A stretch of 62,898 bases of DNA, the filler included, from Globobulimina sp. (lineage: Eukaryota), in NCBI GenBank assembly GCA_003354225.1. It is 29 parts of 29 records of this genome, joined end to end, with 100 filler letters (N's around TTAATTAATTAA, not from the genome) between each part and the next. Parts side by side here need not be neighbours in the genome. Positions count along the whole stretch, not along the records: positions 10,867 to 12,939 come from PIVH01009226.1; 28 more parts are not named here. One strand, 5' to 3'. This document shows positions 8,814-39,011 of the stretch, piece after piece; positions within the stretch are counted from its first letter, which is position 1, and each line of letters starts with the position of its first letter. The notes under the pieces are model-generated. The model made no database searches. It was not told the origin of the DNA and was given only the letters and a program-made list of their open reading frames with translations. The translations under genes and the position numbers were made by a program.

Positions 8814-9361
8814 ATGTATCAACAAGGATTAGTAAGCAATGACGAAACCCTCCAGAACTTTCTCACCAATCAGGAGTATATGGTATAATAATATGATATA
8901 TGTATACAACTTGGAAACAATATATAGCAACTCCTACATAATTAAATATACATAATACTGTGCAGCCAAATCCACCAACAGACAAAAGAGATGTGATTGC
9001 TTTTCGAAAATGGAACGCAGCGAGTTGGGTGAGACCAATGTATTTTTTATCATTATTAATCATGGCATGTGTATTGATAGTAAACTTTATTAGCTTTGTA
9101 GATACCGGAAGTGGAGGGATTATATTTTTTGGTGTTGTAGTAATTGTATTGTGTTGTGGAGCATGTCTTATATTTCATCGTATTGTATATGAGTTAGTGA
9201 TGGCATTTTTGCAAATACCAAAATTAATTGCTTCTATGGAAAGATTAGCCGATACTGTGGATAGGACAACAACTCAGAACAATGGACCCCAAGTACCAAT
9301 CATGACCACTGTCACCACTGGATATCAAACAGGATATCAAGGGAATCAACATCATGAATAA
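8814..9361 (+). CDS. Small membrane protein, DUF4282-like (paralog A); intron 8883-8965
   Basis: Spliced product MYQQ...NQEYM|PNPP...FRKWNAASWVRPMY...RIVYELVMAFLQIP; two TM helices; aligns with the convergent paralog. Confidence 0.65.
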
Positions 9362-9464
9362 ATGAATTAAGTGTATGGCCAGGCCATGTCAATTATATAT
9401 AGTGTATTAATTATAAAATTACAATTGAGTTACAAAAACACTTAGAAATTATCCTTGCACAACG

Positions 9465-9888
9465 TTATATTGGTAAAGAACCGTCGTCCGATTTTAACTC
9501 CAAATCTTGTCTCATTGCAGATTCAAGCTTGTCGACAGCAAATATCAAACGTGGTATTTGCAAGCATGCCATCACCGCCTCACAAAATATTCTTGCATAC
9601 AATACATAGCTTACACAAAATAAAAGTATTGCAATGACACCAAAAAAGATGTAAGCTCCATTATCACTATATCCTACATAAATTAATGCCAAAATACATC
9701 CAAAAAAAACTGTGATCAATGACAAATAAAACATTACACGAACCTATTATTTTGTTAATTCTTGTGATAACATATATTGTGAGTGTATATTCATTACATA
9801 CCCATCCAGATGCAGCCCATGCTCTGAATACCAATAATTCTTTAACATCTACAGCTACTTGCGGCATAAATTCCTCATTTCCTGCCAT
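9465..9888 (-). CDS. Small membrane protein, DUF4282-like (paralog B); intron 9744-9801
   Basis: MAGNEEFMPQ...FRAWAASGW|VRVMFY...RIFCEAVMACLQIP. GTATGT...TAG intron restores the frame. Confidence 0.65.
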
Positions 9889-10027
9889 ATTTTGAGCTAC
9901 GCTTGTTTAAAGATTTTATTTTAGCGAGTTTTTTTTTCGAAGCAAGCGGATTAGTATTTTAAATTACCGTCAATATATTTCCATTAATTTAGCACTTTTT
10001 AAACTCCTAAACTAAAAAGACAGCTTA

Positions 10028-10766
10028 ATGTCAAAGACTAACCAGTTCCCCAACAGATATGAAATGAAATGTTCAGGATGTTCATTTATTTGCGCTCAAC
10101 TTTTAATATTAGTTGCAGTATTTCTGTATTCCATTGATTATGATGTATATTCCGTTAACACTGAAGAAGAAGCACTCACACTCCACAATTTATTGTCATC
10201 AAAAGAATATCGAAGCAGAATGGAGATTGCTGCATCTACCATATGGTTATCATTCCCGTTTCTATTAATTGCATTATTTGGCATAAAGAAACTAATGCTA
10301 TCACTGTACGCAGGGACGAATGGTGAAACGTTTCTATTCACTGCAGTCCAATCATACATTGTATTTATTACAATAAACTGTATTTATATGCCAGCCATTA
10401 TTCTTACAACGAGTGGCTTTCATAAATATATACACCAGAATTCGAATTCGAACCAGATTGAGTTTTTATTCCCACTGGTTATTATATACAATTATATCTT
10501 GTTATATTGTATGGCCGTCGTTGATGCAGTATTTATGATCTCATTGCTTATTTTACCACGCTTCATATTAAAGGATACGGCAAAATTTAAGGTACAGTAT
10601 ACGTGGTTTCTATATAAAAAATCGTCATATCAACTTTTTAAAATCATTTTTTTTTGCACTGAAAAGAAACTTAAATCTGTAATGGATCCATCTTTGCCAA
10701 ATTGTTTAAAAAATATGCAATGTTTGATGAAATTTTATAATATTACAATAATTGCATTTGTGTTAA
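10028..10766 (+). CDS. Hypothetical multi-pass membrane protein, 3' partial
   Basis: Long ORF with several hydrophobic helices; no family recognised. Confidence 0.5.
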
Positions 10767-10920
10767 NNNNNNNNNNNNNNNNNNNNNNNNNNNNNNNNNN
10801 NNNNNNNNNNTTAATTAATTAANNNNNNNNNNNNNNNNNNNNNNNNNNNNNNNNNNNNNNNNNNNNATAAAGCGATGACATTGACAATCAATGGTGAAAT
10901 TTATTTTTCATTTATATATG

Positions 10921-11518
10921 CTGGCGCGCGAGGATATTATAACTTATTTTCATCCACTTATTGTAGTTTTCATTTATACACTGGCGCGCGTACGTGCGCG
11001 CGGATATTATAACTTATTAGTTTCTTCTGACGAGGTCCTGCTAATAAGTTATGAGAGAAATTTATGGCGCGCGCTTGTAAATAATTTCCAAGGTTGTGTT
11101 TGTCCATTTTCTATGTGTGTCCCACACTCCTGTTGAGCCGGCGGAACCTAGGGGTGTAATGGCCTTGGACGCCGGTATTATCATGCCAGAGAGTGTGGGA
11201 TATGTCGTTGCTCCAAAATGCCAATTGGTGTCTCTTCAATTGGAGAGAAGGCATTTTCATGTTGTGAATTTGCGATTTGTGAATGTTGCCCACACCAACA
11301 ATGTCGGTAGGTTGGCACTTGTTGATGGGCTTTCAATGTTTCCTTCACAGGATGTGTCCTTTGTCTTTTGCCCATGCCAGTGGGATGTAATTTACTTGCA
11401 CTGCTGTTGGGTTTCTATGTTTGTGTTTTGTCTCTAAGTGTTTTGTCTTGACCTTGGAAAAGTCGTTGGCGTGCGCGAGGGACTTATTATTTTCATCTGA
11501 CGAGATCCTAATAATAAG
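10921..11518 (+). repeat. Dispersed repeat GGCGYGCG...ACTTATT...TTTC(A/T)TCTGACGAG; copies at ~10921 (degenerate), ~10981-11052 and ~11468-11518
   Basis: Two 38-nt copies exactly 470 nt apart, each a hairpin with CTGACGA in the loop. The closing pair changes compensatorily from G-C to T-A. Confidence 0.8.
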
Positions 11519-11559
11519 AAAAATTAAGTCAAGAAAAAAGGACCGAAACTTAATTTTTC
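11009..11559 (+). ncRNA. Putative split (bipartite, loop-loop) hammerhead ribozyme; predicted cleavage 3' of C11530
   Basis: Catalytic half UUUCUU-CUGACGA-GGUCCU (11021-11039) lies in the loop of a 12-bp hairpin. Substrate half GUC-AAGAAA-AA-AGGACC-GAAA-C (11528-11549) is closed by an 11-bp stem III. Stems I and II are each 6/6 Watson-Crick, and all conserved core nucleotides are present. Confidence 0.7.
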
Positions 11560-11574
11560 AACAACCGGTCGGGG

Positions 11575-11717
11575 CCCCCTCCCCTCCCCCTCCCCCCTCC
11601 CCTACGCCTCGCCGCATTCAAGCCCCCGAAGGGGCTTGAATGGGCGAGGCTCCCTCCGCTTTGGTGGGGGGAAAGGGGGGAAGGGGGGTTTTGGCCAGGG
11701 CAAGGCCTTTGGCCTTG
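11575..11717. other. GC-rich palindromic cluster (20-bp hairpin, flanking C and G tracts, second 7-bp hairpin)
   Basis: GCCTCGCC-G-CATTCAAGCCCC-CGAA-GGGGCTTGAATG-GGCGAGGC (11606-11650); C runs 11575-11602; G runs 11663-11688; CAAGGCC-TTT-GGCCTTG (11701-11717). Confidence 0.9.
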
Positions 11718-11739
11718 TACAATTTCGTTTGAAGTATAT

Positions 11740-12300
11740 TTATAAAGTTTTATTCTTTCTACAAGTTTGAAATAATTTTCTCAAATTTACATCAACAATT
11801 TGTGTACTGCCTAAAGGTGTCATAGCTAACATATCCAACATAGTTTTCATTCCATCTGGTATTGTAGTAGAGTTGTTGTTGTTTTGTTGTTGCGGTATAG
11901 GAGGAGGCGCTTGTTTACATAGGGCATTTAAAATATCATACAAATTTGAACCTCGCACACGATAGCGATATCCTTTGCCAGGTAGGTAGCACAGTATCTC
12001 ACCACTACTTGTATCGAAACCAAACTCGTGACCTTTGAGTAAATGTTTGAGCAGTTGATGGGCAGGATCTCTGGAGCGGGGTGGTAGAGATTGGATCAAA
12101 GTTAAAAATTCTGTATCCATTCCATCACTACATTTGGGTTCGGGTTTTGTTTCTATATCTTGCTGCTGCTGCTGCTGCTGTTCTGTCTCTACAGTTGGTA
12201 ATAGCTGCTGCTGCTGCTTTCTCAACCGATCCAATTCGGCTACCATATCCTGATATTGATTTCTGTCCACCGCTACATATTCGATAAATTTATTGTTCAT
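11740..12300 (-). CDS. Conserved uncharacterised Polinton/adintovirus protein
   Basis: Pattern I.SLP...R..A..LL.HL....GEI.....GSN..D.L....P.G.....L resembles the conserved ORF downstream of Polinton ATPases. Confidence 0.7.
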   Translation of the reverse strand: MNNKFIEYVAVDRNQYQDMVAELDRLRKQQQQLLPTVETEQQQQQQQDIETKPEPKCSDGMDTEFLTLIQSLPPRSRDPAHQLLKHLLKGHEFGFDTSSGEILCYLPGKGYRYRVRGSNLYDILNALCKQAPPPIPQQQNNNNSTTIPDGMKTMLDMLAMTPLGSTQIVDVNLRKLFQTCRKNKTL

Positions 12301-12586
12301 ATTTTAGAATCAATTGAACAAGTGGCATGAAATCACCAAGTCTTTTCTTTAGGTAAGAACTTGGTCGTTTTACTCTTTTAAATCTATTGATCAATTTCTT
12401 TTGTTGGCCGACAATATCTCGTTCTTCCTTGGTCAAACGAACGTCAGTTCTTAATTTTTCCAAAGAAAATTGCAAATATCCGAGCCAATCGGTATAGAGT
12501 TTATTTTTGAACAGAAATTTTTTAATGGCAGACAGTTTAGGATTTTTACTTATAACAAGAGTGGCAATGGCAGTATCAATATTCAT
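12290..12586 (-). CDS. Small basic Polinton protein (putative core protein)
   Basis: 98 aa, K/R rich, V.LT.....+...KK.+ segment and C-terminal G.F.PL; lies directly after the ATPase. Confidence 0.55.
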   Translation of the reverse strand: MNIDTAIATLVISKNPKLSAIKKFLFKNKLYTDWLGYLQFSLEKLRTDVRLTKEERDIVGQQKKLINRFKRVKRPSSYLKKRLGDFMPLVQLILKYEQ

Positions 12587-12939
12587 TTGGGGTTATAGAC
12601 AAGTTTCTCTGGTTCGTCATCGAATATTCCACAACGCAGTCGAAAGTTATTGCCACGAATGGCCACTGGGCTGTTGTCGATCAATATATAGTCACTGTGG
12701 CGCTGCAAGAACATATGATTGGCTACTGATGGTAAAAATCCTGACCATCGATAGAACAATGAGCGCTGCAATGTTTCTAGTGAATTTCCATTCATAATTG
12801 CTGGCATCAGAAACATATAAGTTGCATTTTTTCTTATAGTTCTCATCGAATCACCACCAGCTTGTAAATCTTGGGCTAAAAACCAACACTGAGCTCCAGC
12901 ACCATTACAGGCATGGTGGCTAGTGATTGTGAATAATTT
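12583..12939 (-). CDS. Polinton packaging ATPase (A32/FtsK-HerA family), C-terminal part
   Basis: Frame open to the contig edge: KLFTITSHH...FLAQDL...MRTIRKNATYMFL...YILID...FRLRCGIF. Confidence 0.85.
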   Translation of the reverse strand, partial: KLFTITSHHACNGAGAQCWFLAQDLQAGGDSMRTIRKNATYMFLMPAIMNGNSLETLQRSLFYRWSGFLPSVANHMFLQRHSDYILIDNSPVAIRGNNFRLRCGIFDDEPEKLVYNPK

Positions 12940-13115
12940 NNNNNNNNNNNNNNNNNNNNNNNNNNNNNNNNNNNNNNNNNNNNTTAATTAATTAANNNNN
13001 NNNNNNNNNNNNNNNNNNNNNNNNNNNNNNNNNNNNNNNAAATAAAAAAAGCTAAAATATACAAAAAAAAGTTGAGAGATATTTAAAAAAAGTTGAAAAC
13101 AATGAAAGATAGAAA

Positions 13116-14480
13116 CTATTTTCTAATAATCTTGGCCAATTTTTTGGATCCTCTCGATTTCGACTCAAAGAAATACGCTTTCTTTTTAGTTTTCGTTTGT
13201 GGCGATTTGGGCGAGGTTTTGGTGGATTTTTTAGTTTTGGCCACTTGATTGGAATGCATATTTGCATGCACATTGGGATGGACCTCGATGATTAATTCGT
13301 GCTGCTTGTTATATTTGCGTTTATTGTAAGAATGCGCCACGCGCGGAATCGAGGTAATATTATGATGCTTTTCATCATCATACTTTTCGCTGTAATTCGA
13401 CACATTGGAATAAGAGGGCGATGGCGAAGACATAGAGAGCGATTCCGAGGTATTGGGCGAGTTTAGATATTGAGAGGAGATGGATTTGGGCGATTGCCTC
13501 GATACAATTTCTCGTTTTGGCGACGAATTGGGCGAAATGGAGGAATTGGTGCTAAGTGATTTGGGCGAGGTTTTTTGCTTTTTTTTGAGATGGTTTTGTT
13601 GGATGGGATCCCACAAATACTTGCATAATAATTGCAACTCGTTGTCGATGTCATGTATTTGGTAGCCATAACAAGGGGGCATCCAAAAATTAGTGATCTT
13701 GCGGTCGGCGTCAAACCACGACGTCGCGTTGTCGTCCACAATTAACACTTTTTTAGGGTCCAAGTCGTGTCTATTGCATATTAATCGGAATGGCTTCTTA
13801 GGTTTACCTTCATCGTGTTCGTCGTCGTGTAAATCATGGAAATTATATACATCGTCCTATATATGGCAGATAACAATATGTAAAAAATAGTTTGTGTTTA
13901 CGCAAATTCGATACTATGTTAATTTGAGTTTGGCGCAAAGCAAAGTACAAAAACATACAATTAAGTCAGGATTGGCCGAGGTGAAGTTACTGATTAACGC
14001 CGCTAAGACGGAGGCGGCGTAATGTTCGCCAGCTTTTGTACAAATGATGATTTTTGTACCAAAGTGAGACTTTAAATAATCTAAAACCGCTAATAAGTGC
14101 CATGTGAATGGTCGATAATATATCATAGTACGCCCGCGAATGAAGGGATGCATTTGATGGCCTTTGCGATGAATATGGCGATGCCATTTAGAACATTGGT
14201 TCTCTGCTAAGGATGGAATGGTGCCATTCTCGACGTATTTGCGCCATCGTTTGACAGATAATCGTTTGCCATGAATTATGGTACGATCTAAGTCTAATAT
14301 GATGCAGTCCCATTTGTAGCTAGTCTTATGTGCCTCGGCAAGTGTGTATAATTGAGGATAGATTGCATTTTGATATTGGGGCATGGCTTCGGGCAATTCG
14401 CGTACGGGTACTTTACTACATCGTCTTTTATTGTGGTTGTTTTGGCCATTATGGGCTAAGGGGACTTGTTGTTGGTTCAT
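13116..14480 (-). CDS. FCP1/SCP-family (NIF) HAD phosphatase; one intron ~13858-13948
   Basis: IILDLDRTII (DxDxT), YYRP, IICTKAGEHYA, VLIVDD; S/P-rich tail. Confidence 0.8.
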
Positions 14481-19558: not shown

Positions 19559-21631
19559 AGGGAAACGTTCCCCGTCAAGCAACCAGCAGAGATATCCACA
19601 ATTTGGGGGGTCAAGTGGCTTTAACAACTCATAGCCTATTATAGATAGTAGCAGGTAAAAAGCAAATTTAGCTTTGTTAACAATTGAGGTTTTCTTTAGT
19701 TTGTATAGGCTAGGATAGTTCTTTTCTATATGCTTGAAACTTAAACTAAGAGCGAACGGTGTGATCTGTGTGAAATTGACAAAAAACACACATAAAATAA
19801 AGAAAAACCGTTAATAACAACAAAAATCTACAAAATAAAATGGCAAACGGTAATTCGCAAAAAAAAAATAAAATAAACGGTAATAAACGCAATGATTGTG
19901 GGAAATCCCAATAAGTGATTGGGTGTGGCATGCGATTGCTTTTGAAACATTCGTATGGCAATACATTGCATGCGTGGTTGTGGCAGGTAACTGCAACAGG
20001 TGGGAAACTCTGTGGAGAGTCCCATACGGCAACGCACGTAACAGCGCTATATGTTAAATATATACAAACTAAACATTAACAACCAAATAAAACATATATA
20101 AACATATATAAAACAATGTATAGAATGCCCAGAGGTAAGAAAAGAATGACGCGAAATACTTTGCGGCGCGCAAATGAAGGAAATAACGATGATGACTTTG
20201 ATATTGTCATCGATAATGAACATAATCATAATCATAGCAATGATGCCGGAGCCAGTGCATATACACAGTTATTATACCAATTGCAAAAAATTAATAACTT
20301 TACCCGTCCATTCATAGCTCGTACGGGATTAGATACTTTGCGTTGGATCCTTGATGTCAATGATTATATTGATATTAATATAGACGCTCCCGAGAATTTA
20401 GTCTTTGATAAGATAATGAATTCCATTCCGCAGCATATACAGCGATATTATCGTAATTATATAACTGAACAAAATCGTCAGTTGGTGGCCAATCAGAATC
20501 AGAAAAATCAAGATGATGATGATATTGATTTGTTGCATCACAAATCATTAAATACATTAAAGCAATGGGCTAAATACCAATATCCACCAACTCCCAATGT
20601 TGATTCGTTAATAAATAAATTAAAACAAATCCAATTCCGATACAAAGAAAATCCATTAACCGTTTTTGATCGGTTCCAGATACTATGTGGTAATATAGAA
20701 TTATGTACAAATTTATTGAATGATGACTTAACTGCCGATGCCCAAATTCCCCATTTGACAGATCGTGAGAAATGGATCCAATTAAAGCGGATCTTTATTA
20801 CGCAAAATAATGTACAATCTCATAATAATATATCCAAAATTAATAATAAAGTAAAGACTCACATTGGAAATCGAAATCCGATAACGTTGCAGCAATTTGT
20901 TGATTTGATTTTAGCGCTGCCCGATATCGTCGTACCTCGCGTACACGCCGATGACCGCAATTATCAGTATAAAATATATAAAGATGAGCCGAATGCCACA
21001 TCTTTATTTCAATCACAAGTCCGATCATATAATAACTATAACGATGGCGGTCCAAATTCATATAGAGGTCGCGGACGAGGTAGAGGTGGCTTCCGTGGCC
21101 GAGGTAGTTTCCGTGGCCGTGATAGAGGCAGTTTTAGAGGGAGTTATCGAGGGAGGCGTGGAGGTCTCCGTGGTGGTAGTTTTAGGCACCGTGGACGTGG
21201 TAACTATGGACGTGGCAGCTATCGTGGATTTGGTAGAAGCAGGGGACGAGGAAACGGCTGGCAGCGTGGACTAAAGCGTAGTTTCGATGATATGCAGTCG
21301 AATTCATCTCGAAATAATACCGAGTGTTACCGATGCGGCAAATACGGACATTTATCGCGTGATTGCCGCAGCAAACGACATAAAAACGGCCAGCCACTTG
21401 GTTGGAACGACCAACGTCCGACAAATGCTACGAATTCATCACAAAATACACAAAATCCATCACGGAATGCACCAAATAATAATAGGAGTAATAACCAACC
21501 AAATATACCAAATATAACTTGTTATCGTTGCGGCTTTGATGGCCATGGTCGCCGAGATTGCATGGCCACGATTAATAAAAAGGGACAGCCGATAAATGAT
21601 TATCGAACTAATGCTGTAAAGCAACAGCTAT
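19559..21631 (+). mobile_element. LTR retrotransposon 5' region (possible LTR end, PBS, gag)
   Basis: ...CCACA (19600), then TGGGGGTCAAG (tRNA-Pro-like PBS, 19604), a ~500-nt leader and an intronless gag-like ORF. Confidence 0.55.
20116..21631 (+). CDS. Gag-like protein with RGG region and two CCHC zinc knuckles, 3' partial
   Basis: CYRCGKYGHLSRDC and CYRCGFDGHGRRDC; capsid-like L..I.F...E.P...FDRF segment. Confidence 0.7.
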
Positions 21632-35152: not shown

Positions 35153-36839
35153 TCAGGCAATTAATTCAACACCGGATTGATCAGAATCATCATAATTATC
35201 AATATGATTACAACTATCATTATCAGATTGTGTCTCATCATCATTACTATCGCTATGCGTTAATGCAACATTAATGGGATGGAATCCATACTTTCCTTCA
35301 GATCCACAGTTTTCTGAAATAATTTGTGGCATAAATTGCTTAGAAAACTCAACCATAAAATCTTGTCTTTTCTTCAAATAATAAAATATTAGCGAACATA
35401 ACAAAATTCCTACAAATATGGCAAATAAACTTATTAACCAAAATAAATTGGAATTTATCTCAATCAATGAATTAAAAGACATCAATGGAGGTACAAATAC
35501 GTCATCGTCTTCCTCTTCTTCTCGTTGCTCTTCCTCCGCTTCATTATTATGATCATATTTCTTTTGTACATATGTGATATCATCATCATAATTATTATAA
35601 ATGAAGAGGTTATGTTTTAAATATTTTTGTTGCTGCGGATGTTCAATTTTCTCCAATTCATAGGGTTCATCTGCATGTTTTACCCATTTATTATTTACGC
35701 GACCATATCCTTCTGCTACCTCTGCATATTCATCATACTCATACTCATCGTTGTTACTTTCATCGTAATTCTCATCATAGAATGCCTTTGCATCCCATCC
35801 TTCTTCCTCCACATCTTCATCGTCAATGCCATCATACATTTCATTCCTATCATCATCATATTCATCGTAATTCTCACCATAAATTTCCTCTTCCTTTCCA
35901 TCATCATATTCATCATCATACTCATCATAGTTTCCATAATTTCCATCATAAATTTCATTTAAATTTTGCTTTGCATCTTCATATTCATCATAATAATCAT
36001 CCATATCATAACTCGCTTCATCACCCTCATCCTCATAATAATCATCATCATACAACATATCATATTCATCCATCGCCTGCGCTTCATCACCATCACCACT
36101 CTGCGCTTCAACTTGTGGACCAACCTCACCATAATACCCACTCATATCTGCATTCCCTCCATAAAACATACCACCATCACCATACATCTCCCCCTCCTCC
36201 GCATACTCATCATACACATCCACATAATCATCAATATCCAAATCCAGCGCACTCGCATGTCCATCACCCTTCAACTTAGCAAAAATGCCTTCATCCCGCG
36301 GTTGACAATGATACTGCGGCGAATCAATCCATTGCAAAAACTGACACAAACACAACCTGCCGCCCATCATATGCATACACTTACGTTCCACCTCCCTTCC
36401 TTTATTAGTCCTAATCTCGTCCTTACTCCATACCTCACCGCCACCCACCTCGTCACTACCAACTACATCCTCTCCCACTTTGGCACTGGACACCACCCAT
36501 TCTTTGCCATCAATATCGTCATACCATTCATCAATAAAATCCTGCTCCATCTCTGCCGCTGCGTCATCATAATATAACATATCACCTTCCATCAGGTCAT
36601 GAGCTGCCGCATTTACACTCGCTTTAGCTGCCCATTTCATGTATCTCTTCACCTTAAACGGTAAATGTTTGATGACCTCTAATATCCGCTTAGCGATCTT
36701 CTTCCATTTATGTATGCTCTGAAACTGTATACTCAACTTCAACTCCATCAGATTTGGGTTGAACCCCATGCAGACTTTGGCAATGTACATAAAATTGCAC
36801 ATTTTTGTCATGGGCAAATGGATGGTCGTCGGTAATTTT
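35153..36839 (-). CDS. Single-pass membrane protein with a very acidic D/E/Y-rich ectodomain, 5' partial
   Basis: Long YD/YE/DE-rich tract, one TM (LFWLISLFAIFVGILLCSLIFYYL) followed by KKR. Confidence 0.75.
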
Positions 36840-38137: not shown

Positions 38138-39011
38138 ATGTTGACAAAAAAGAAAAAAGACCAGCTTGCCAAATTGTACTATAATCCAGAGACCGGTTTC
38201 ACCTCTGCCAGGAAACTTTGGCTGCAAGCCCACAGAGAGAATCCTAAAATTAACCAATCGGATGTAGACCGTTACCTCTCTACTCAACCGGCATATGCCA
38301 GACATAAACAGGTACCGCGACCGAGGACATCGATTTGGAATCAATGGATCAATGCGTCATACCCGGGACAATTGGTTGCGATTGATATATGGTTTCTAGG
38401 ACAGAAAACAAAATCGCAATTCCCACACGCTCTCGTTGCAGTTGATGCATTGAGTAAACTTGCAGCCGTTGTTCCAGTCCATAATTTGACTGCTAAAAAC
38501 GTTGCAAATGCTATGGAAAAAATAATAAAAAACTATAAATTTAAAATACACTCAGCTTTTTCTGATCACGGGGTCGAATTTATGGGCAGACCATTTCGTG
38601 ACAAGATGAAGCAATACAATATCAAGCAGATTTTTACTTCTGGCAACAACCCCTCAAAAACTGGATTAGCAGAATCTTTGATACGATCGTTGAGAATTAT
38701 ACTTGGCAGAATTGTAACCGCTGGTGGTTCTGGATGGAACGGTGTGAAGCAAGCTGTCACTATTTACAATAACTCACCACATAGTTCCATTGGTAACAGA
38801 ACACCAAACAGTGTGACTACTGAAAACGCGGGTGACGTACTACATTCTGTCCTAAATAAAAGAAGAAAAATTATTGCCAAAAATATCTCAACACCACCCA
38901 AATTTCAAAAGGATGACATTGTACATAAATTAGAGCTCGACAAACAAGGAGCTTTTGGAAAAATTAATTTACCACGATGGAGTGAGGAACTGTATAGAGT
39001 ATATAAAGTAA
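38138..39011 (+). CDS. Polinton-type retroviral-like (RVE) integrase, 3' partial
   Basis: LYYNP..GF....KL, D-D-E triad (AIDIW, SDHGVEF, LAESLIRSL), YNNSPHSSI..TP, KF...D.V, PRWSEE.Y.V. Confidence 0.93.

What the first reader, a model, noticed from the sequence alone, without database searches (positions are those of the whole stretch)
11009..11559. Split kissing-loop hammerhead ribozyme beside a Polinton-like virus gene cluster
Seen: hairpin E1 (ATAACTTATTAG/CTAATAAGTTAT) displays UUUCUU-CUGACGA-GGUCCU in its loop. About 490 nt downstream, hairpin S (GAAAAATTAAG/CTTAATTTTTC) displays UC-AAGAAA-AA-AGGACC-GAAA. UUUCUU pairs with AAGAAA (stem I, 6/6) and GGUCCU with AGGACC (stem II, 6/6, starting with G10.1-C11.1). 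The S stem acts as stem III with a GUC triplet. Established: this gives the full hammerhead core (CUGANGA, GAAA, NUH). Unusual: the strand order, with the stem I 3' strand joined by a 2-nt AA linker to the stem II 3' strand, is not a circular permutation of types I-III, so standard searches would likely miss it. Inference: a modular enzyme-plus-substrate ribozyme acting at long range or in trans, on the strand antisense to the neighbouring viral genes. It could process the 3' end of a convergent transcript or belong to a retrozyme-like RNA.
Basis: partly seen in the sequence, partly recalled or inferred. Interest (0 to 1): 0.92.

Follow-up and report, generated by a model that had tools for sequence, protein, structure and literature searches.

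The report
Two-hairpin split hammerhead ribozyme candidate
Two hairpins about 490 bases apart in a marine protist-like genome carry loops that fit together into a complete hammerhead (self-cutting RNA) core in a strand order not described in nature, but only this one locus is available and the claimed virus neighbourhood is not there.

Summary
Hairpin E1 (11009-11052) shows UUUCUU-CUGACGA-GGUCCU in its loop. Hairpin S (11518-11559) shows C-AAGAAA-AA-AGGACC-GAA, closed by an A-U pair and preceded by GU. Together they give helices I (6/6) and II (6/6, G10.1-C11.1), a 12-bp helix III, CUGANGA, GAAA and GUC.

Chance does not explain it: 0 of 1110 simulated windows gave even the stemless core plus arms plus UH, and only 3 of 1,113,840 reorderings of the S loop fit. 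Rfam finds no hammerhead, as expected for a non-canonical strand order (helices I and II both open).

New here:
- A second, mismatched E copy (E2, 11483-11518) abuts S.
- A degenerate third copy lies upstream.
- The 597-nt stretch folds strongly (z -5.3), and a long-range helix brings E1 next to E2/S.

Against: no relatives were found, so there is no covariation for helices I/II. There is no RNA data. E1's own apical helix hides the core, and helix I is weak.

The neighbours are cellular eukaryotic genes. No ATPase or Polinton hallmark was found.

Verdict: probable (about 0.5) new topological variant of the hammerhead, awaiting a cleavage assay.

The parts
10923..10963 (+). E0: degenerate third copy of the E unit. 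It keeps GGCGCGCGAGGATATTATAACTTATTTTCATC and lacks the CUGACGA core and the 3' arm.
   Evidence: D1, D3, D12; alignment.
11009..11052 (+). E1 hairpin, the proposed enzyme module. Stem 11009-11020 / 11041-11052. Loop = helix I 3' strand 11021-11026 (UUUCUU), core C3-A9 11027-11033 (CUGACGA), helix II 5' strand 11034-11039 (GGUCCU), then G11040.
   Evidence: (I5).
11066..11478 (+). Central structured domain, higher in G+C than its flanks. It is closed by a long-range helix (about 11066-11095 with 11450-11478) that brings E1 next to E2/S.
   Evidence: MFE -141 kcal/mol, z -3.3 alone; z -5.3 for 10974-11570; I14: 11085-11094 / 11451-11460, 10/10.
11483..11518 (+). E2 hairpin: second E copy with the CUGACGA core intact (11497-11503). 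Its arms mismatch S at 1.2/2.2 (A.A) and 10.2/11.2 (A.C). Its own apical helix is stronger than E1's. It abuts S with no linker.
   Evidence: (D2, I3).
11518..11559 (+). S hairpin, the proposed substrate module. Helix III = 11518-11529 / 11548-11559. GUC = 11528-11530, with the predicted cut between C11530 and A11531. Helix I 5' strand 11531-11536 (AAGAAA), linker AA 11537-11538, helix II 3' strand 11539-11544 (AGGACC), GAAA 11545-11548.
   Evidence: I6; longest of the 60 listed S-type hairpin entries in the window.
11570..11700 (.). Very stable G+C-rich imperfect palindrome directly 3' of S. Whether it belongs to the ribozyme unit is not shown.
   Evidence: 11560-11725: -110.9 kcal/mol, z -6.3; C-rich motif found only here apart from one 1-mismatch match at 36191; I1, I7, I8.

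Best explanation
This is a hammerhead-type self-cleaving RNA motif assembled from two hairpin loops on the + strand. It lies in an intergenic, repeat-built and strongly folding ~0.6-kb stretch of a unicellular, apparently marine, eukaryote.

The E1 loop supplies the enzyme strand (helix I 3' strand, CUGACGA, helix II 5' strand). The S hairpin supplies everything else: helix III as its own stem, GUC, helix I 5' strand, a 2-nt AA bridge, helix II 3' strand and GAAA. Loop-loop pairing would form two 6-bp (about half-turn) helices side by side. The hammerhead core closes them at one end, and the E stem plus the AA bridge close them at the other. In-line attack would cut after C11530, leaving a 2',3'-cyclic phosphate on the upstream RNA and a 5'-OH on A11531.

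This is the natural counterpart of the first synthetic trans hammerhead, which had helices I and II both open. A long-range helix closing the 11066-11478 domain puts E1 near S. E2 is a decayed or locked copy.

Shown: the letters, the complementarity, the improbability by chance, and the predicted fold. Inferred: that the region is transcribed, the three-dimensional fit, the cleavage, and the role. The most likely role is 3'-end formation of a structured non-coding RNA or of read-through from the upstream + strand gene.
For: - Every defining hammerhead letter is in place: C3-A9, G12-A14, A15.1-U16.1, C15.2-G16.2, GUC, G10.1-C11.1 and A1.1-U2.1.
- E1-S arms are 12/12 Watson-Crick. Duplex energies are -2.2 kcal/mol (helix I) and -8.7 kcal/mol (helix II).
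- Chance is excluded under several nulls.
- The arm order (a..b against a'..b') is that of a hammerhead, not of a DNA inverted repeat (read).
- The S loop is predicted almost fully unpaired: probability 0.93 or more at 16 of 18 positions.
- 10974-11570 folds at -194.4 kcal/mol with z -5.3 and 0 of 100 shuffles as good. E1, E2 and S form as hairpins, and a closing helix juxtaposes them.
- The E hairpin is kept in the E1/E2 duplicates through one two-sided change (G11020-C11041 versus U11490-A11511) and one one-sided change.
- E0 and E2 share the A at the position where E1 has U11025, so the letter that perfects helix I with S looks derived in E1 (a parsimony inference from three copies).
- Precedent: in the crystallised pseudoknot hammerhead, a 6-bp helix made with a hairpin loop replaces helix II, stacks on helix III and on that hairpin's stem, and lies parallel to helix I (PMC11300833, passages and section 7 read).
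Against: - No second locus was found. Three DNA-pattern scans of IMG/VR and one of JGI metagenome contigs gave only hits without a stem III. Helices I and II therefore have no covariation support.
- The only natural variant, E2, breaks one pair in each helix instead of compensating.
- No RNA data exist, so transcription of the + strand is not shown.
- E1 alone prefers a 4-bp apical helix that buries C3-U4 and A9-G10.1, with unpaired probability 0.14 or less there.
- Helix I is all A-U apart from one G-C pair and is weak.
- The closed two-loop topology has never been shown to fold or cleave.
- There is only one cleavage site, so no unit-length excision.
- The region is built of short repeats, some of which occur elsewhere in the genome (loose ends). 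Part of the structure may therefore be DNA-level repeat history.
Confidence: 0.5

Rival explanations
1. It is a structural RNA or a ribozyme relic without present catalysis. The two loops evolved to kiss, or once formed a hammerhead, but the closed topology, the weak helix I and E1's self-pairing keep it inactive now. The E/S units may be decaying duplicates of an ancestral adjacent E-S unit.
For: - The E2-S pair has two mismatches next to the core.
- A short stretch after E1 aligns weakly with the start of S, as if an S copy had decayed there.
- E0 has lost the core.
- E1's apical helix sequesters the core.
Against: - E1-S is perfect at all 12 arm pairs, and every core letter is intact, which is not expected of a decayed relic.
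- Given a kissing pair, the extra match to CUGANGA, GAAA and UH is itself improbable. My estimate is of order 1e-5; this is arithmetic, not a tool result.
Confidence: 0.22
2. It is a DNA-level feature with no RNA function: a hairpin-rich minisatellite or the remnant of a foldback-type mobile element. The palindromes and duplicated units would then only by accident read like a hammerhead.
For: - Three copies of the GGCGCGCG...ATAACTTATT unit, 60-70-nt sub-repeats, many inverted repeats, and a huge G+C-rich palindrome next door.
- Contigs of run X1 diverge within 10899-10950, so the left-hand sub-repeat exists elsewhere in the genome.
- Both strands fold well: z -5.3 for + and -4.3 for -.
- CU-GACG-AG is itself a small palindromic hairpin tip.
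Against: - S is not an inverted copy of E. Their stems are unrelated, and the complementary arms stand in swapped order, which an inverted duplication does not produce.
- The joint match is far beyond chance even given the loop composition.
- No other copy of E or S occurs in the 62.9-kb window.
Confidence: 0.2
3. One reading: a modular enzyme-plus-substrate ribozyme tied to a Polinton-like virus. It would process convergent viral transcripts or belong to a retrozyme-like circular RNA.
For: - E copies flank a structured non-coding domain as direct repeats about 470 nt apart, which loosely recalls retrozyme architecture.
- ORFs downstream do lie on the opposite strand.
Against: - No Polinton or virus hallmark was found.
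- The neighbours include an intron-like split NIF phosphatase gene.
- Only one cleavage site is visible, so a circle cannot be excised. The 100 masked bases at 10767-10866 could hide another.
Confidence: 0.05

Closest known systems
First synthetic trans-acting hammerhead (Uhlenbeck 1987), as described in the review PMC6155905 (passages read)
   Same: The split is the same. One strand is helix I 3' strand-CUGANGA-helix II 5' strand. The other carries GAAA, a closed helix III and the cleavage triplet. There are no loops on helices I and II.
   Different: That construct is an artificial pair of linear oligonucleotides. Here both strands are closed hairpin loops on one DNA strand: the far ends of helices I and II are tied together by a 12-bp stem and a 2-nt AA bridge. 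The layout is natural.
Discontinuous (split) hammerhead in the 3' UTRs of rodent Clec2 genes (Martick et al. 2008). Read only through passages of PMC2920678, PMC6765202 and PMC6155905.
   Same: Enzyme and substrate segments lie hundreds of nucleotides apart on one transcript. A role in 3'-end or expression control was proposed.
   Different: Clec2 is described as an atypical type III hammerhead with a very large helix I, which is the canonical strand order with helix II as a hairpin. Here helix II is also split, and the order is enzyme first, then substrate.
Pseudoknot (PK, RAGATH-1) hammerhead, Rfam RF03152 (accession taken from earlier scan notes); crystal structure in PMC11300833
   Same: A 6-bp helix made with the loop of an extra hairpin takes the place of helix II. 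It stacks on helix III and on that hairpin's stem, with helix I parallel to it. This is the geometry needed here.
   Different: In the PK form the core, helix I and helix III are in the ordinary contiguous order, and only helix II is a loop-loop helix. Here both helices I and II are loop-loop helices, and the CUGANGA strand itself sits inside the hairpin loop. No RF03152 match was found at E<=10.
Dimer-dependent hammerheads: Penelope-like elements, and the viroid and newt hammerheads of ref. 133 in PMC6765202 (passages read)
   Same: A single unit is not competent by itself. Activity needs parts from two repeat units.
   Different: Those dimerise through a short palindromic helix III and keep the type I or type III strand order.
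Retrozymes (abstract of PMC5680766 in a search listing; the rest is recalled)
   Same: A non-coding, highly structured few-hundred-nt region lies between direct repeats that carry hammerhead parts.
   Different: Retrozymes have a complete canonical hammerhead in each repeat and give circular RNAs. Here only one cleavage site is visible and the repeats carry only the enzyme half.

Membership tests
Hammerhead ribozyme (core definition) | Conserved C3-U4-G5-A6-N7-G8-A9 strand | tested here: met
   CUGACGA at 11027-11033, and again at 11497-11503.
Hammerhead ribozyme (core definition) | G12-A13-A14 followed by the A15.1-U16.1 pair that opens helix III, and an NUH triplet before the cut | tested here: met
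   GAAA at 11545-11548. A11548 pairs with U11529. GUC is at 11528-11530. Helix III has 12 pairs.
Hammerhead ribozyme (core definition) | Helices I and II flank the core, with helix II starting at G10.1-C11.1 | tested here: met
   6/6 + 6/6 Watson-Crick pairs between the E1 and S loops; G11034-C11544 is the first pair of helix II. This is complementarity only; folding is not shown.
Hammerhead ribozyme, types I, II and III (Rfam hammerhead models) | Strand connectivity that is a circular permutation of III-I-core-II-GAAA-III, detectable by the Rfam models | tested here: not met
   No Rfam match at gathering thresholds in the window and no hammerhead family among 32 matches at E<=10. The block III-5'/GUC/I-5' lies between II-5' and II-3' (read).
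Hammerhead ribozyme (any type) | Site-specific, Mg2+-dependent self-cleavage giving 2',3'-cyclic phosphate and 5'-OH ends | not testable with these tools
   No RNA run holds the locus, and only contigs could be laid.
Hammerhead ribozyme (any type) | Helices supported by covariation among relatives | tested here: inconclusive
   No relatives were found. Within the locus, the E stem has one compensatory pair between E1 and E2, while helices I and II show two uncompensated changes in E2.
Pseudoknot / RAGATH-1 hammerhead (RF03152) | Contiguous core, with the helix II loop pairing to the loop of an extra hairpin; matches the Rfam model | tested here: not met
   RF03152 is not among the matches at E<=10. 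Here the core strand itself lies in the hairpin loop.
Discontinuous Clec2-type hammerhead | Type III order with a long insertion in helix I and helix II as a closed hairpin | tested here: not met
   Helix II is formed between two loops, and the order is enzyme then substrate. The definition comes from PMC6155905 passages.
Retrozyme | Two complete hammerheads in flanking direct repeats, giving an excised circular RNA | tested here: not met
   One S site only in the readable sequence. 100 bases at 10767-10866 are masked. Circular RNA is not testable here.
Polinton-like virus gene cluster | Hallmark genes nearby: packaging ATPase, capsid proteins, and protein-primed polymerase or integrase | tested here: not met
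   0 of 152 ORFs of 80 aa or more have a Walker A motif. Pfam gives cellular families. There are no IMG/VR relatives for the two neighbours tested. One rve integrase ORF lies 27 kb away at 38138-39011. Capsid genes without a Pfam model could be missed.

The most novel reading that the evidence does not exclude
A fourth natural hammerhead architecture. The catalytic core is assembled by a two-helix, paranemic-like kiss between two hairpin loops, with helices I and II both open. The enzyme and the substrate are then separate, portable hairpin modules. Such a ribozyme could act at long range or truly in trans in a cell. It would be invisible to all current hammerhead descriptors, so the class may be widespread and uncounted.
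Probability: 0.45. Interest if true: 0.85.

Novelty: new variant of a known kind. Interest (0 to 1): 0.62.

Why it matters
All catalogued natural hammerheads, apart from the pseudoknot form, are circular permutations of one connectivity, and searches assume this. A natural hammerhead whose enzyme strand sits in one hairpin loop and whose substrate sits in another would have three consequences:

- The motif could be built modularly.
- It would give a natural candidate for trans cleavage, a possibility raised for split hammerheads in PMC2920678 and said in PMC6765202 to have fuelled a search for trans-cleaving ribozymes.
- It would call for new descriptors that pair distant loops.

The closed two-helix design also offers a compact scaffold for engineered ribozymes. 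If the cleavage assay fails, the locus is still a clean example of how far a motif match can go without function.

Tried and rejected
- **Rfam.** Whole window at gathering thresholds: 0 matches. 10860-11760 at E<=10: 32 weak matches, mostly miRNA models on the G+C palindrome and none to a ribozyme family.
- **tRNA scan** of 9000-13000: none.
- **Own genome:** not held.
- **Other copies in the window:** none by descriptor, by short-word BLAST, or by patterns for a partner of E2's arms.
- **IMG/VR DNA-pattern scans.** A 16-mer of S gave 8 loci, all unrelated and apparently coding contexts. The E pattern gave 1 locus, which also reads as coding. The loose S pattern gave 2 loci, neither with a long stem III (at most 6 pairs).
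- **JGI metagenome scan** with the loose S pattern: reported as 93 stretches. Across all 104 loci held, 95 pattern matches were checked for a flanking stem III. The longest stem was 6 pairs (2 matches) and the rest had 4 or fewer, so there is no relative.
- **Sequencing runs:** no RNA holder listed. X1 holds the stretch, X2 holds a small share, and X3 and X4 had nothing laid.
- **Earlier scan notes:** nothing for this place or sequence.
- **ESM Atlas** for the neighbouring ORF: best score 0.88 to unnamed clusters, so no lead.
- **Inverted-duplication origin of S from E:** rejected, because the stems are unrelated and the arms stand in swapped order.
- **Canonical hammerhead from E2+S read contiguously:** rejected, because helix III's 5' strand lies inside what would be loop 2.
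- **E2 acting on the adjacent S in cis:** judged sterically unlikely, because there is a 0-nt linker between two stems whose loops would have to meet. This is inference only.
- **Literature.** Searches listed no title or abstract describing a natural hammerhead with helices I and II both open. I read only passages of four papers. One search failed on a term of more than four words and was not repeated.

Full report
**What is in the sequence.** One search shows the two hairpins exactly as described.
- E1 has a perfect 12-bp stem (11009-11020 / 11041-11052; I5). The stem reaches 15 pairs if G-U is allowed.
- The E1 loop reads UUUCUU-CUGACGA-GGUCCU-G.
- S has a perfect 12-bp stem (11518-11529 / 11548-11559; I6).
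- The innermost S pair is U11529-A11548. The unpaired loop is C-AAGAAA-AA-AGGACC-GAA.

In hammerhead numbering this gives:
- C3-A9 = 11027-11033.
- G12-A14 = 11545-11547.
- A15.1-U16.1 = A11548-U11529, and C15.2-G16.2 = C11549-G11528.
- C17 = C11530, the proposed cut site.
- Helix I = 11531-11536 with 11021-11026 (6/6).
- Helix II = 11034-11039 with 11539-11544 (6/6), beginning G10.1-C11.1.

**Is it chance?** I tested three nulls.
- (a) Random sequence with the window's dinucleotide statistics. In 1110 simulated 60-kb windows (both strands), a CUGANGA whose two flanking 6-mers are matched within 1 kb by arm'-N0-6-arm'-GAAA preceded by UH occurred 0 times with perfect arms. It occurred once without the UH. 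With one arm mismatch it occurred 5 times, and with two mismatches 27 times. The real window gives one perfect case (E1-S) and one two-mismatch case (E2-S). No stems were demanded in that count.
- (b) Stems. In 844 simulated windows, a CUGANGA inside a hairpin loop with a stem of 12 or more occurred 10 times. A UH...GAAA hairpin with a stem of 12 or more occurred 237 times. In 630,630 bases of unrelated fetched contigs, no E-type stem exceeded 10.
- (c) Conditioning on the S loop's own purine-rich composition. Only 3 of 1,113,840 distinct orderings of its 18 letters give H17, arm I, a 2-nt bridge, arm II and GAA in place.

Multiplying even the generous figures leaves a chance expectation far below one case in a scan of hundreds of thousands of windows. 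That product is my arithmetic, not a tool result. The complementary arms also stand in the order a..b against a'..b'. A hammerhead needs that order. An inverted DNA repeat would give b'..a' instead.

- There is a second E hairpin, E2 (11483-11518), with 32 of 37 letters identical to E1 (D2). Its CUGACGA is intact, and it abuts S with no linker.
- With S, E2 would leave A.A at 1.2/2.2 and A.C at 10.2/11.2. Duplex energies fall from -2.2 and -8.7 kcal/mol for E1 to -1.2 and -3.3 kcal/mol for E2.
- All five E1/E2 differences sit at positions that pair within the hairpin. G11020-C11041 becomes U-A, a two-sided change. U.G becomes U-A. Two further changes lengthen E2's apical helix to four Watson-Crick pairs around a GACG tip.
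- So the E hairpin as such is kept. E2 looks locked shut, and E1 is the copy whose letters fit S.
- A third, degenerate copy (E0, about 10923-10963) keeps the left half and shares E2's A where E1 has U11025. This suggests that the letter perfecting helix I is derived in E1. With three copies this is only a hint.
- A short stretch after E1 aligns weakly with the start of S. An ancestral adjacent E-S unit may therefore have been duplicated and decayed in a complementary way.

**Fold of the region.**
- The + strand 10974-11570 folds at -194.4 kcal/mol (z -5.3; 0 of 100 shuffles as stable). E1, E2 and S appear as separate hairpins.
- A long-range helix (about 11066-11095 with 11450-11478, including the perfect 10-mer I14) closes the 410-nt central domain.
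- In the fold, E1 is therefore separated from E2/S by about 16 unpaired nucleotides and one helix end, not by 430 nt.
- The - strand also folds better than its shuffles (-150.6 kcal/mol, z -4.3), so the fold statistic alone does not fix the strand. The hammerhead letters occur only on +.
- Against easy activity, E1 alone prefers a 4-bp apical helix that buries C3-U4 and A9-G10.1 (unpaired probability 0.14 or less), and helix I is weak.
- The S loop is predicted open, with probability 0.93 or more at 16 of 18 positions.
- A competing 11/12 pairing of 11441-11452 with 11528-11539 could hide the cleavage site (I9). In this A+T-rich stretch that may be chance.

**Can such a topology work?** This paragraph is inference, with one structural precedent. 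The enzyme strand runs down helix I, through the core and up helix II. The substrate loop runs the opposite way. Both far ends are tied, by the E stem (0 and 1 nt linkers) and by AA. Two parallel helices of about half a turn joined at both ends allow two closed loops to associate without threading.

In the crystal structure of the pseudoknot hammerhead:
- A 6-bp helix made with a hairpin loop replaces helix II.
- That helix stacks coaxially on helix III and on the hairpin's stem, and lies parallel to helix I.
- That form is more than ten times faster than the extended hammerhead studied earlier (PMC11300833, passages and section 7 read).

The split itself is that of the first synthetic trans hammerhead, which lacked loops on helices I and II (PMC6155905, passages). 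For E2 acting on the adjacent S, the 0-nt linker between two stems whose loops must meet looks sterically prohibitive. E1, or an E from another molecule, is therefore the plausible partner.

**Relatives and expression.**
- None were found. No whole genome is held, and the window has no other copy.
Those I read lie in what look like coding sequences.
- Helices I and II therefore have no covariation test.
- One run (X1, kind not on record) holds 0.86 of the sampled words. It gives a 954-nt contig over 10902-11855 with 3 differences, which bridges E1, E2, S, the G+C palindrome and the start of the next ORF.
- A marine metagenome run of another study (X2) has a 205-nt contig at 11668-11872 with 4 differences.

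**Surroundings.** The window is cellular eukaryotic DNA, not a virus cluster.
- Pfam finds SPOC, MRS2, JmjC, zf-MYND, a DNAAF5-type TPR, SAM and a D-serine dehydratase-like enzyme.
- It also finds an NIF-type phosphatase whose profile is split between two ORFs: positions 2-79 of the profile in 13914-14480 (E 5.9e-5) and positions 94-150 in 13119-13856 (E 0.1, weak alone). The ORFs are about 60 nt apart, as a short intron would give.
- No ORF of 80 aa or more in the whole window has a Walker A motif (0 of 152).
- The two nearest minus-strand ORFs tested have no relatives in IMG/VR.
- The motif lies between a + strand membrane-protein-like ORF that runs into the mask at 10767 and a minus-strand ORF ending at 11740. 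It is therefore in a convergent intergenic region.
- Directly 3' of S lies an extraordinary G+C-rich palindrome (11560-11725: -110.9 kcal/mol, z -6.3). It is unique in the window.

**Comparison with known forms.**
- It works like a hammerhead at the level of every defining letter and helix.
- It fails membership of types I-III and of the RAGATH-1 form on connectivity and on the Rfam models.
- It differs from the Clec2 discontinuous hammerhead, which is described as a type III with a giant helix I.
- It differs from dimer-dependent hammerheads and from retrozymes, because only one cleavage site is visible.
- Three literature searches listed nothing that describes a natural hammerhead with helices I and II both open. 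I read passages of four papers only, and supplements were not consulted.

**Verdict.**
- The hammerhead reading is the best explanation (0.5), but it rests on one locus without covariation, expression or biochemistry.
- The viral association is not supported.
- If cleavage is shown, this is a new topological variant of a known ribozyme class.

Noticed in passing
window 11560-11725: A very stable G+C-rich imperfect palindrome lies in a ~30% G+C genome, directly 3' of the S hairpin. It has C/T-rich and G/A-rich arms around a perfect 12-bp hairpin (11615-11642), and folds at -110.9 kcal/mol with z -6.3. It is unique in the window. Its function is unknown; it could be a transcription block, a foldback element, or part of the 3' cleavage product.
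   Followed up: partly
window, every ~2173 bases (e.g. 10767-10866): There are 28 masked blocks of 100 bases, each two runs of 44 N around TTAATTAATTAA. ORFs run into them, so they replace real sequence. One hides the left edge of the repeat region and part of a further A+T-rich hairpin whose 3' strand is 10900-10909.
   Followed up: partly
window 11441-11452 and 11528-11539: An 11/12 complementary pairing would sequester the GUC site and the helix I strand of S. It could be a regulatory alternative fold or chance in A+T-rich sequence.
   Followed up: no
window 10899-10950 (run X1 loose ends): Contigs of run X1 match the left-hand sub-repeat (TTTTCATCC / GGATATT units) and then diverge. Copies of that short unit therefore exist elsewhere in the organism's genome.
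   Followed up: no
window 13119-14480 (- strand): An NIF/FCP1-type phosphatase domain is split between two ORFs about 60 nt apart. This is consistent with one short spliceosomal intron in a cellular gene.
   Followed up: partly
window 20116-21631 (+) and 38138-39011 (+): There is a gag-like ORF with a CCHC zinc knuckle (PF14787, E 1.2e-12) and a separate integrase-core ORF (rve, E 5.5e-10).
   Followed up: no
window 11668-11872: A marine metagenome run of a different study (X2) holds a 205-nt contig with 4 differences. The organism or a close relative therefore occurs in seawater samples.
   Followed up: no
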